From: Octopus sinensis
Lineage: Eukaryota
Direction: 5' to 3'
Length of the DNA: 64,000 nt
NCBI RefSeq assembly: GCF_006345805.1
Contig: NW_021832228.1
Coordinates: 138,114 to 202,113 of the forward strand
Below the pieces are notes generated by a model. That model had not been told where the DNA came from. It saw only the letters and a list, made by a program, of their open reading frames with translations, and searched no databases. Of this stretch, positions 4,461 to 29,562 are shown piece by piece; the first letter of the stretch is position 1, and every line of letters begins with the position of its first letter. Position numbers and translations under genes: made by a program.

Positions 4461-5700
4461 AGTAGTGAGAGTAGTGTTGGATTCCTCAGTTCTGGGATGT
4501 TCAAAATTGGGGAATTGGTTCAAATCGAGTACAATTTAGTGTTTCATTGGTAGACCGCAGGTTGTGGGGGTTATAACTCGACTGGAACGTCAAAACTTTG
4601 TGATTCTTAATTAGTTCGAAAAGGTGGATTTTCAGAGGTGATTTTAGATTGTTAAGAAAAAGAACAATTCGATAACAGTGAGGAAAGTGAGTGCCAATGC
4701 AGTGACTTTTTACTCGGATAACCAGGCAATAACAGTGGCCAGTTCGGTCAAAGTCATCAAAGGGCCTTTGGAAGTAAGTATATTACGTAATCAGTAGAAT
4801 GAGACGGGAACAGTTACAACAGTTACATGTATATACAAGAATTATGTGTTTGTCAAGTCATCCAGTCTGCAACATAATTCTGGGTTATTTGTGGTGGTTA
4901 GACGGAATCTGCGTCGATTGGATGGTAGTGAGTGTTAGTCGGGGGTTGGACAGTGAGGCACGGAGGAATGCAGTCGAGGGTAAACTGGGTGGTTTTGGGT
5001 CTCCATTCCCGATGGCTTCGCCAATGCACTACGCCACCGCATCTACCAAAGTAGGGTCTTAGAGGAATGTGAGGGATCGTCGTCTTATCGGGAATGCCGT
5101 CATGATCATTAAAGGACCACTGAAAGGGAATATTGGTATCATTAAGGACGCGAGTGAAAAGACTGCACAAGTTGAGCTTCACTGTAGTTGTCGTACCATC
5201 AATGTGGATCGTGGCAATTTAATGGCCATTCGTGCTGCTAATGATAACTCCTATGATTTGTCCACACAAGAAGGCAAAACGTTGTCGATTACTCCCACTG
5301 TGAGCAATATTCCTGTCCCTGTGGGGGGAAGGACTCCTTTATATCCGCAGACCCCGTCCTACCCCGAGATTCCGGCATATCCGCAGACACCATCTTACCC
5401 ACAAACACCGATGATAGAGACAGAGGGAGGAGCAACCCCTCATCATTTGATGGAGGAGGGCATGTCTAATTCGTATTGGCTGTGTATGTTAATTTGTAGA
5501 GTTCAGTCGAGTCCTGCTACATTTGGGAGAATTAATTGGCAGTCCCCATTGGATACTCCATGTTTGTGTTTTGTAATATTGTTGTAGCTCATCTACTATT
5601 TGCTCAAGACTTTGACACCTTATTCTACTGTGTCGGTCTCGTGGTGGCTGCTTCCACCAATAAGTCGTTCATTGATTGCGTGATTCGCCGCCATTAAATT
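4461..5700 (+). pseudogene. SUPT5H: 3' half of transcription elongation factor Spt5 (KOW domains and CTR repeats)
   Basis: SESSVGFLSSGMFKIGELVQIEPQVVGVITRLER, VKVIKGPL, ASPMH, LIGNAVMIIKGPLKGNIGIIKDASEKTAQVELHCSCRTINVDR and GGRTPLYPQTPSYP repeats. There is an in-frame TAG near 4612, short introns, and no NGN domain. Confidence 0.92.
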
Positions 5701-10096: not shown

Positions 10097-10990
10097 TGTC
10101 ACCGTTGAGTTATATGACTGGTTATCTGGTCTATAATCGAAATCCATTTATAATCGAGGTTTTTAGACAAACAGGTGGAGGACATCATATATTTCAAGGA
10201 TTGGTTTAGTCTTTCCACGTGCCCCTGCTATAGGCTCCTATGGGCTAAATTGCAGGTATGGTGTTCATAAGCTTTCTCGCCTGACATTGGCAGCATGATT
10301 TGAAAACTGACATAACCTCACTTCTTAAAGATCCATAAACATTATCTTTAAGGAGAAAAAGCAGCTTGTCTCGACCTGGGTGTCCATTTTTTAAATGGAG
10401 AATTTCAATAAACAGTTTCTTTTCTTCTACTTCCTCGAGACCGAAGGTACGTAATAAGATTCCGGAAGTTTTGAAGTAAACAATGTCATTTTTGGAGTGC
10501 GACGATCTAAATAATGATGCCGTTCTCCTAAAATTTGACTCATTTTGATTCTGAATCACTTCATCTGGCATTTCACCATCCTTAAGAAATGCTATAATTT
10601 CCGACTTTTTCTGTAGGGTCAATAAAACGAACTTCATAACAAAAAATTATGTAAAGTGTTCGGAAAATTTCGATTTTCATATGAGGTCAGCCATTCTAAA
10701 AAATTAAAATTTTCTTTCTTTTTTAAATTAAAAAATTTAAAGTGATGATTTTTGTGATTATATACAGAAAGTTAAATTAATCAGAAATTAATCGGCCAGC
10801 AAGCCGGATGGAACAGCTGTTCCCACGCACAACGGCCAACAGGATCCTTTGGATTGTGATTATATTAATTTAATTTTTTGATAATCTATAATTTTGAGGT
10901 TTCGTTTTAGCGTAGCAACGGCACGGCGTTAACGGCAAAATCGATTTTGCGCGATCTTTCTCAGCCTGCAATCACTCTCAACCGGTGACA
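10097..10990 (-). mobile_element. Ginger2/TDD-like DNA transposon, internally deleted, with integrase HHCC N-terminus
   Basis: Inverted termini TGTCACCG(G)TTGAG; 5-bp TSD ATTCC at 10092-10096 and 10991-10995. ORF 10637-10245 has HLKNGHPGRDK...CCQCQ. Inserted in the RTE ORF. Confidence 0.88.
10785..10852 (-). mobile_element. Very short 5'-truncated CRE 3' end nested in the Ginger element
   Basis: QRILLAVVRGNSCSIRLAG matches the CRE C-terminal motif QRISIAILRGN. Confidence 0.7.
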
Positions 10991-19660: not shown

Positions 19661-20383
19661 TGTCGCATGCACAACGCGCACTACGCCCCGAGCGCACATT
19701 ATCGATTAGTCATATTGTAATTTTTATAAATTTTTTCGAAATTATTGAATATAATGACACAAATGGCACTTTAAAAATATTATAATATATTTATTAATTT
19801 GTTAATATCTTTTTTTCATCAAATTTTAATTAAATATTACGCACGCTATATACTATGGATTGTTCACGTTTGGTTTTCCAAAACAAAAGAAGTTATATAA
19901 GAAATGTGACCGGTTGAATACGAGCCCAGGTTGATTAGGGTCAGGGTTAGGGGTTTGGGTTAGGGTCAGGGGTTAGCGTCAGTTTTAGGGTCAGGGATTA
20001 GGGTTAGGGTCTGTTTTCTTTAGTGGCTTTTTATGATGAATATGTTTATAAATAACGTTGAAATCATTTATAGTTAGAGTTAAAGTTAAGGTTAGAGTTA
20101 AAGTTGTTACAAACTTGCCAAAAAATTTGATGTAAATTATAATTTGCTAATGTTGCAATTTATAATATCAAAAATAAAAATAATTCACATTATAATTTGC
20201 TAATGTTGTAAATAATTTTACTATTTTAAAGCAAACATGGTTCAAATATAAAACATCATTTTTTCAAAAATTTAAAGTTCAATCATTAGTTCGGAACGTT
20301 TGCCTTTATTTTAATTGGCCTTTTGAATTATTAGCGAATCAATAATGTGCGCTCAGGGCGTAGGGCGCGTTGTGCATGTGACA
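19661..20383. mobile_element. Non-autonomous Ginger-type MITE containing a telomere-like array
   Basis: 47-bp TIR TGTC(G/A)CATGCACAACGCGC... with 4 mismatches; 5-bp TSD TAATA at 19656-19660 and 20384-20388. Removing it restores the hAT reading frame. Confidence 0.92.
19935..20009 (+). repeat. Degenerate interstitial (TTAGGG)n-like array
   Basis: TTAGGG/TCAGGG/TTTGGG units; a more degenerate GTTAGA/GTTAAA/GTTAAG run follows at about 20073-20105. Confidence 0.9.
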
Positions 20384-28259: not shown

Positions 28260-28880
28260 TTTACAACCTACAAAAAACTACGATAGATTGTAAATCAAAA
28301 CTTCCAGAATATCCTTTTAAAAATATTATTGAACTTTTAACCTTTTAATGCTCAGTGATTTGTTTTTCTTTAAATAATAATTTTAATAAAATATAGTTTC
28401 TAAATATCTTTAAGAATTTATAGAATTTCCAATTTACACGTTTTTTGAGTAACTCTTAATTTTTCCTACAAGATCCTCCCTGTCACAAAATTCAGCAGCG
28501 GATTCAACTAGGAGTTGAGACTCCGGGCACTTTTTGGATTAACATTATTGTCCCGGTGATGTTCTTTGTTAAAGCATCCTATTTTAATCGTAAAATATAA
28601 TTTGTTGATATTCAGTGGAAGAAATATTTTTTATTGACTATGATGAAAAATTCATAATCCAATCATTATTCAGGAGGAACAAGAGAAGCGTTGCACAATA
28701 TTTTGCGACAAAAAAGACATTTGGCTTTCGATAAAAGCTTTTCACCAAACTTTGAAAATCCCTATAACAGATATTCGCCCAAGTATTTTCGTTTCTGTAT
28801 TATTAATTGTAATTTTTTATACTTTCTTTAGAGTTATTTCGATTAAACGTTTTGATATTCATTAATTCAGATATAATAAA

Positions 28881-29562
28881 TGTCACCGTCTTGAAGGGAC
28901 CCCCAGGGTTGAACGGAAAATTAAGAATTAAAAAGGCAAAAGTAAATGGCAGGCATAAATTATATGTAAAAAATAGTATTTTAATTATTTTTATAATAAT
29001 TCTAATGTTTAATTTATTATTTTAGAATGGCTTGTCTAAAATTTTATTTTTACATATCAAATTATGACATGCAATGCGACATTGTGACCTTACTCATGAG
29101 GGTTAGGGGTAGGGTAGGGTTAGGGTAGGGTTAGGGGCAGGATTAGGGGCAGGATTAGGGGCAGGATTAGGGCTAGGTTTAGGGTAGGGTTAGGGTCAGG
29201 ATTAGGGTTAGGTTTAGGGTAGGGTTAGGATTAGGGTTAGGCAACATCTATGAAGTGGTGGAAATGGGTATAAGTGGGTTTACGATTGGTTACTTTACTT
29301 TGTTTTTAACTATATATAATTGGCTTTGTAAATTGTAATGACATTCATTTGAAATATTTATTATATTATTTATAATTAGTCTATTTATTTTTCTGAAATT
29401 AAGGCAGTACTAATGTAATCATAATTTTACTAATATAGAAATATTTTGAGGTCATGCAAGTATCTCTGGAATCCTCTTTTGGGTATTTCAATTATTAAGT
29501 GTATGAAATATCTAATTAGGGTAGGGTCCCTTCAAACTTGGGGTCGTTCGATGCCTGTGACA
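28881..29562. mobile_element. Second Ginger-type MITE containing a telomere-like array
   Basis: Termini TGTCAC..GTGACA with an inverted TTGAAGGGACCC motif; 5-bp TSD ATAAA at 28876-28880 and 29563-29567. Confidence 0.85.
29100..29241 (+). repeat. Degenerate interstitial (TTAGGG)n-like array, about 140 bp
   Basis: TTAGGG, TAGGG and TTAGGGGCAGGA units. Confidence 0.95.

What the first reader, a model, noticed from the sequence alone, without database searches (positions are those of the whole stretch)
28881..29562. A different Ginger-type MITE also carries a telomere-like array (copy 2)
Seen: 682 bp, TGTCAC..GTGACA ends, TSD ATAAA and about 140 bp of TTAGGG variants including three TTAGGGGCAGGA units. 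Its TIRs differ from copy 1 beyond the first bases, so two families share size, end type and cargo. Both telomere-like arrays in the window lie inside such elements. Inference: the tract is ancestral or selected in these elements.
Basis: partly seen in the sequence, partly recalled or inferred. Interest (0 to 1): 0.72.

Follow-up and report, generated by a model that had tools for sequence, protein, structure and literature searches.

The report
Telomere repeats patch a deleted transposon
This small mobile DNA element is a transposon whose enzyme gene was cut out and replaced by telomere-like repeats, likely added during DNA break repair, and its copies spread these repeats through the genome of what is probably a tiny parasite sequenced along with its host; no function is shown.

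Summary
The element is real: 682 bp, 5-bp duplication confirmed by empty sites, six further near-full copies with arms 0.5% apart. Its parent was found: a Ginger2/TDD-like element with an H2C2 + integrase transposase. The 141-bp TTAGGG-like tract is not ancestral. It joins codon 9 of the transposase to its last ~36 codons, replacing about 1.2 kb, and 0 of 50 transposase loci carry a tract. The left junction is in register with the telomere repeat, as in break-repair telomeric insertions; telomerase is my favoured source (0.5), copying from an existing tract the main rival. Copy 1's tract belongs to a third, nested family, so the two window copies do not share cargo by descent. Three Ginger-type families with unrelated arms carry tracts, eight others do not; 800 kb of blind DNA had none. 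One copy grew into a 4.7-kb array. On the large chromosomes, 29 of 30 sampled tracts sit in a different, 8-bp-duplication MITE, so the pattern is not Ginger-specific; the scan noted that MITE and a tract-grown satellite before on other DNA. The Ginger families lie on small contigs, probably a dicyemid. Selection is untested.

The parts
28881..29562 (+). Whole non-autonomous Ginger2/TDD-like element (family 2, subfamily A); + is the sense strand of the parent's transposase
28876..28880 (.). Left copy of the 5-bp target-site duplication
   Evidence: single copy at empty sites L313, L314
29563..29567 (.). Right copy of the 5-bp target-site duplication
28881..29073 (+). Left arm: terminus, imperfect TIR with a 12-bp subterminal motif (28891-28902, inverted at 29524-29535) and AT-rich leader of the parent
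   Evidence: element 1-220 is 97.7% identical to transposase-bearing L032; inverted pair I18
29074..29100 (+). First nine codons of the parent transposase; the last two bases (AG) are in register with the repeat that follows
29101..29241 (+). Telomere-like tract (TTAGGG and variants), G-rich on the sense strand, replacing about 1.2 kb of the transposase reading frame
   Evidence: G4Hunter mean 1.42 against 1.5 for pure TTAGGG
29242..29265 (+). Remnant of the transposase C-terminal region (codons N-I-Y-E-V-V-E), right side of the junction
   Evidence: matches L032 and L114 coding sequence; region aligns with relatives
29266..29562 (+). Right arm with further small deletions; holds a 12-bp telomere-like motif at 29516-29527 just inside the TIR
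   Evidence: (D2)
19661..20383 (+). Copy 1, for comparison: family-1 ends (duplication TAATA) with a family-3 element nested from 19905; its tract (19935-20009) belongs to family 3

Best explanation
The element is an internally deleted Ginger2/TDD-like DNA transposon in which a telomere-like tract replaces about 1.2 kb of the transposase gene, likely written there by telomerase during an aborted break repair, and it is likely moved in trans by the parent transposase. Shown: the parent, both junctions inside the reading frame, absence of the tract from autonomous copies, recent multiplication with 5-bp duplications, and copy-to-copy change of the tract. Inferred: a break or an incomplete gap repair left the 3' end of the left arm ending in AG; telomerase primed on it and added GGTTAG repeats; end joining attached the new tail to the right arm; slippage and unequal exchange then degraded and resized the tract, in one copy to 4.7 kb. 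The tract is most likely a passenger whose copy number comes from transposition.
For: Parent: the same left end leads after 200 bp into a reading frame with rve (E 2e-13) and Integrase_H2C2 (E 4e-6). Left junction: 4 of 4 autonomous arms continue as coding sequence where 7 of 7 subfamily-A copies continue GGTTAG; right junction: 2 of 2 autonomous copies read through uninterrupted. No tract in 30 of 30 and 20 of 20 transposase loci (50 of the 108 matches were fetched, some are two pieces of one element), nor in the complete 2,076-bp family-3 parent. Of 16 family-3 left ends fetched by end pattern, 9 lead to a tract, 5 to transposase, none to both. G-rich strand continues the left arm in families 2 and 3. 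In-register bases and deletion at the site are the marks of break-repair telomeric insertions (PMC7215372, passages). Arms differ by 42 of 8,253 compared bases while every tract differs in length or units. A POT1 domain lies on one of the small contigs that hold these families.
Against: Only 2 bases are in register (chance up to 1 in 16 by the table in PMC7215372), and a microhomology template switch predicts the same. Tracts are degenerate: exact TTAGGG is 4-38% of parsed units in four subfamily-A copies. No TERT was found on the small contigs (one search gives one weak hit on a large chromosome; blank and uninformative), and this organism's telomere sequence is unknown. Tracts do travel between families (copy 1). 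Subfamily B shares the right junction but has a different left junction with 9-10 extra bases, so the original left junction is uncertain. The element's own right arm holds a telomere-like 10-12-mer. The family-4 parent was not found. That telomerase adds GGTTAG per cycle is recalled, not from a call.
Confidence: 0.5

Rival explanations
1. Templated capture: during gap repair the nascent strand switched by microhomology to an existing telomere, internal tract or another tract-bearing MITE, copied it, and switched back. One or few tracts were then passed among families.
For: Copy 1 shows a tract entering family 1 inside a nested family-3 element. Variant units TCAGG, ATTAGGG and TTTAGGG occur in both family 2A and family 3, TTATGG in 2B and 4. 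The extra bases at the 2B left junction resemble the bases before the family-3 tract (by eye, short). Capture of a pre-existing repeat is the model for miDNA4 (PMC12628747, passages).
Against: No non-tract sequence is shared among families 1-4 except one 25-bp AT-rich hit in opposite orientation. The 2A junctions are clean, with no donor flank. Free tracts are rare: 0 in 800 kb. Dominant units differ by family.
Confidence: 0.3
2. Local origin: the tract grew by slippage from the telomere-like motif just inside the element's own right TIR, copied to the deletion junction.
For: The 12-mer at 29516-29527 recurs in the tract (3 exact and 2 near copies) and its 11-bp unit is repeated at the start of four sister tracts; a 10-bp form is in a related right end, L047.
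Against: The family-3 parent has no TTAGGG at all yet its MITEs carry tracts; subfamily B tracts use other units; loss of one T is a common decay of TTAGGG.
Confidence: 0.1
3. Element-level selection (not exclusive of the above): tracts arise rarely, but MITEs that carry one amplify better, for example through telomere-protein binding, a G-quadruplex or easier end pairing.
For: Tract-bearing families are numerous: 34 end matches for family 4, 21 of 24 fetched with tract. Family 4 was met by chance, 1 tract in about 12 kb of chance-met MITE families against 0 in 800 kb (rough p 0.015). An unrelated MITE on the large chromosomes shows the same cargo.
Against: Eight Ginger-type MITE families and two family-2 derivatives lack a tract; tract sequence drifts freely; one family-1 copy moved or persisted with most of the tract deleted (L272); families 1-3 were found through their tracts.
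Confidence: 0.2
4. The tract is an ancestral part of Ginger2 elements, for example in an intron or untranslated region.
For: Several families carry it near the same distance from the left end (about 200 bp in families 2 and 4).
Against: 0 of 50 transposase loci, 0 of 80 metagenome relatives; both junctions are uninterrupted coding sequence in the parents.
Confidence: 0.03

Closest known systems
Ginger2/TDD DNA transposons (Bao et al. 2010, PMC2836005; passages and section 6 read)
   Same: TGTNR termini, AT-rich target, H2C2 + DDE integrase-like transposase without GPY/F, 5-bp duplication as in TDD-4 and TDD-5; a non-autonomous member (Ginger2-1N1_NV) is listed there.
   Different: Animal Ginger2 are reported with 4-bp duplications and 45-180-bp TIRs; here 5 bp and a weak TIR of about 40 bp. 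The N-terminus may have a YPYY-like motif. 'telomer' does not occur in that paper's main text.
Short interstitial telomeric sequences inserted at double-strand breaks (PMC7215372; passages read)
   Same: Sudden appearance against an empty ancestral state, deletion at the site, bases in register at the 3' break end.
   Different: The deletion is about 1.2 kb rather than short, the site is inside a transposon, the product is mobile, and the host is not a vertebrate.
Tandem-repeat-carrying MITEs and MITE-seeded satellites: miDNA4, Xstir, DTC84, lepidopteran (GTCY)n MITEs (reviews PMC12628747, PMC9659126, PMC6947457; passages read)
   Same: Variable internal array between conserved arms; occasional growth into a long array (4.7 kb in L033).
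   Different: The array is the telomere motif, the parent is known, and the array sits exactly on the transposase deletion; the passages seen mention no telomeric cargo.
IS481EU/Banshee (PMC10045372; passages read) and Gypsy solo LTRs
   Same: TGT..ACA or TG..CA ends and 4-5-bp duplications.
   Different: IS481EU lacks the HHCC finger that the parent has; a solo LTR has no inverted ends around a lone transposase.

Membership tests
Ginger2/TDD | TGTNR termini | tested here: met
   TGTCA at both ends; definition
Ginger2/TDD | 4-5-bp AT-rich target duplication | tested here: met
   5 bp in 7 of 8 family-2 elements with both ends, all A/T; empty sites
Ginger2/TDD | TIRs of about 45-300 bp | tested here: inconclusive
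   6 bp perfect, about 40 bp imperfect; family-3 parent has longer but imperfect TIRs
Ginger2/TDD | Transposase with H2C2 finger and DDE integrase core, no reverse transcriptase between the TIRs | tested here: met
   rve and Integrase_H2C2 only; complete 2,076- and 2,220-bp relatives with TIRs and duplication; no single intact family-2 parent with both ends was recovered
Ginger2/TDD | No GPY/F motif | tested here: met
   none in family-2 or family-3 transposase or at the aligned C-terminus
Ginger2/TDD | No YPYY motif upstream of the zinc finger | tested here: inconclusive
   the N-terminus has Y, P, F and YY at similar spacing; the defining alignment is a figure that could not be seen
Ginger2/TDD | Groups with TDD-4 and Ginger2 in a transposase tree | not tested
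Ginger1 | CCGG/CCGT 4-bp duplication, GPY/F motif, OTU or Ulp1 domain | tested here: not met
IS481EU | No HHCC motif upstream of the catalytic domain | tested here: not met
   H2C2 present; definition
Short interstitial telomeric insertion | Empty ancestral state, with deletion at the site | tested here: met
Short interstitial telomeric insertion | Bases in register at the 3' break end | tested here: inconclusive
   2 bases at one junction; subfamily B has extra bases
Short interstitial telomeric insertion | Telomerase present with a TTAGGG template; telomerase-RNA fragments | not testable with these tools
   TERT searches uninformative for the small contigs; POT1 present
Tandem-repeat-carrying MITE | Non-coding, TIR-bounded, multicopy, variable internal array | tested here: met

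The most novel reading that the evidence does not exclude
Telomerase routinely patches the breaks that cut-and-paste transposons leave, so telomere addition is a recurring route by which MITEs are born; the tract then favours their spread, which would make MITEs the main source of internal telomere-like DNA in invertebrates, seen here in three Ginger2 families of a probable dicyemid and an unrelated MITE of its host. The tracts would also point to a TTAGGG telomere in dicyemids.
Probability: 0.22. Interest if true: 0.75.

Novelty: new variant of a known kind. Interest (0 to 1): 0.47.

Why it matters
Repeat-carrying MITEs are known, but the origin of their arrays is usually guessed. Here parent and derivative can be aligned base by base, and the telomere-like tract sits exactly where the transposase was lost. 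That links two separate literatures (telomeric insertions at breaks, birth of MITEs) and gives a direct test: sequence excision-repair products with and without telomerase. It also warns that internal telomere-like arrays, even kilobases long, can be transposon cargo rather than fusion scars. Nine library searches showed no paper describing telomeric filler at a Ginger2 deletion; Repbase reports and subscription journals were not searchable, so prior description cannot be excluded.

Tried and rejected
Long copies as autonomous candidates: the 4.9-kb family-2 copy (L031) and two 4.6-kb family-3 copies (L106, L107) are MITEs with nested non-LTR retrotransposons. Blind sampling for enrichment: four 200-kb blocks (contigs chosen for holding family hits, positions blind) gave 0 tracts, so no enclosed fraction could be measured for the small contigs. 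The tract-start pattern needs a near-perfect start, cannot match family-2A tracts, and only the first 100 of 177 matches were listed, all on large chromosomes; 30 were fetched, two pairs being one element each. Family-4 parent: not found in 24 end loci or other held loci; the 26 codons after its tract resemble transposase C-termini only at non-significant scores, so a same layout as family 2 is unproven. TERT searches uninformative. Sequencing runs: one run holds 64% of sampled words and may be the assembly's own sample; its contigs cover both arms, show an empty-site joint, and skip the tract, so they do not verify the tract letters; a second run with the same sample label and the small-share runs gave nothing usable. 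Metagenome relatives are distant (22-40% identity), often on short contigs, and may include retroelement integrases. Intron reading of the tract rejected: parents are uninterrupted at both junctions. About 20 further transposase loci and the loci were not examined. No paper supplements were read; the Ginger paper's figure and alignment files bear on the YPYY and tree questions.

Full report
Observation. The element is as described: 28881-29562, TGTCAC..GTGACA, ATAAA on both sides, a 141-bp telomere-like tract at 29101-29241 with three TTAGGGGCAGGA units. The tract scores 190 against pure telomere repeat, shuffles at most 20. Two paralogous loci have the flanks joined with one ATAAA, fixing both ends.

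Family. A search of the own genome (40 of 444 candidates scored) gave six further near-full copies at 91-97%. Seven of 8 family-2 elements with both ends have their own 5-bp A/T duplication. Arms of the seven subfamily-A copies differ at 42 of 8,253 compared bases, while each tract differs in length or unit order: a young family with an unstable core. A subfamily B has other terminal details, other units and shorter tracts; one B copy runs from the left arm into a 4.7-kb array of a 24-bp telomere-like unit.

Parent. L108 has the same left end followed after 200 bp by a 399-codon open frame with rve and Integrase_H2C2 domains; L032 and L114 supply the C-terminal part. Related complete elements of 2,076 and 2,220 bp have TIRs and 5-bp duplications. 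Termini, target, domains and lack of GPY/F fit Ginger2/TDD (PMC2836005); TIR length and the YPYY criterion are inconclusive and no tree with reference elements was made. It works like Ginger2; membership is likely, not fully tested.

Where the tract sits. The MITE keeps the first nine codons, then GGTTAG begins; after the tract it resumes in the codons for N-I-Y-E-V-V-E, about 36 codons before the stop. That region aligns with relatives, so it is coding sequence and not an intron border. The tract therefore replaces about 1.2 kb. Subfamilies A and B share the right junction, so family 2 acquired the tract once. No tract was found in 50 fetched transposase loci (30, 20, of 108 matches) or in 80 metagenome relatives.

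Other families. Copy 1 is a family-1 arm with a family-3 element inserted at the start of the family-1 reading frame; seven family-1 loci continue into coding sequence at that point with no tract. In family 3, 9 of 16 left ends lead to a tract, 5 to transposase, 2 to neither; there the tract lies in the left arm, before the reading frame. Family 4, met by chance, has a tract in 21 of 24 fetched ends; its parent was not found. Arms of families 1-4 are unrelated apart from one short AT-rich hit, and the family-2 and -3 transposases are 54% identical. Eight further Ginger-type MITE families and two family-2 derivatives have no tract, and 800 kb of blind DNA had no tract at all. So up to three acquisitions among about a dozen families seen, with ascertainment bias for two of them.

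Not Ginger-specific. A tract-start pattern gave 177 matches; of 30 fetched, all on large chromosomes, 0 have Ginger ends, 29 have at least one GGATC end, 23 both, and 16 a duplication (8 bp in 14, one mismatch allowed). An earlier scan note on another genome describes such an element as Merlin-like.

Which organism. All 30 family-2 end matches, all 34 family-4 end matches and all 108 transposase matches lie on small contigs; 2 of 72 family-3 end matches are on large chromosomes, below the control count of 8. Five near-identical Spt5 copies on small contigs differ from one on a large chromosome, and the best homologue is only 49% identical. The family-3 transposase frame grows from 140 to 425 residues when a 26-nt GT-AG segment is removed. 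GC is 35-37%. The identical transposase record carries an octopus label. Tiny introns, 36.7% GC and 49% repeats are reported for Dicyema japonicum (PMC6736024, PMC13644364; passages), and earlier notes on this genome say dicyemid. I rate a co-sequenced dicyemid as likely, not shown. 'telomer' does not occur in that genome paper's main text.

Mechanism. Shown: deletion derivative, filler at the junction, mobility, drift and expansion of the tract. Inferred: a break inside or at the site of an autonomous element left a 3' end ending in AG, telomerase extended it, end joining closed it onto the right arm. The in-register bases and deletion match vertebrate short telomeric insertions (PMC7215372), and a POT1 domain on a small contig suggests ordinary telomeres. 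Against: two bases are weak evidence, tracts are degenerate, TERT was not found there, and tracts can move between families. I give telomerase 0.5, templated capture 0.3, growth from the element's own subterminal motif 0.1, ancestral 0.03; selection on top of any of these 0.2. The tract could fold a G-quadruplex (G4Hunter 1.42), but nothing here shows a function.

Novelty. The parts are known: Ginger2/TDD, repeat-carrying MITEs, telomeric insertions at breaks. The combination, with parent-resolved junctions inside a transposase and recurrence across families, was not seen in nine library searches (listings and abstracts only, apart from the eight papers cited by passage). New variant of a known kind; interest 0.47.

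Noticed in passing
L236-L265 (large chromosomes C1-C3): Internal TTAGGG tracts sit in two related MITE types with GGATC ends and mostly 8-bp duplications; one type has the tract twice, inverted, inside long TIRs. Parent not found among 20 Merlin-domain loci.
   Followed up: partly
L033:1890-6567 (G000:C8852): A family-2B left arm runs straight into a 4.7-kb array of a 24-bp telomere-like unit: a satellite grown from the tract.
   Followed up: partly
window 5063-5587; L286-L291: Five near-identical Spt5 copies on small contigs and a different one on a large chromosome; with 26-nt introns this points to a second, tiny-intron organism in the assembly.
   Followed up: partly
P0003, P0006, P0011, P0014: The closest named non-self relatives of the transposase (42-48% identity) are from microsporidia (Dictyocoela muelleri, Nosema granulosis); possible horizontal transfer among parasites.
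   Followed up: no
window 10245-10990 (-): A truncated Ginger2-like element of another family (end plus H2C2 region) inserted in a non-LTR retrotransposon.
   Followed up: partly
L040:1650-2180; window 20068-20105: A family-3 tract is flanked by a short duplication of the arm, and family 3 has a second, much more decayed telomere-like run further right, hinting at two additions of different age.
   Followed up: no
L036 (G000:C10:16741000-16743800): An internal TTAGGG array regularly interrupted by a spacer of about 31 bp.
   Followed up: no
L031, L106, L107, L115, L118: These MITEs are often targets of nested insertions: non-LTR retrotransposons and other Ginger-type elements.
   Followed up: partly
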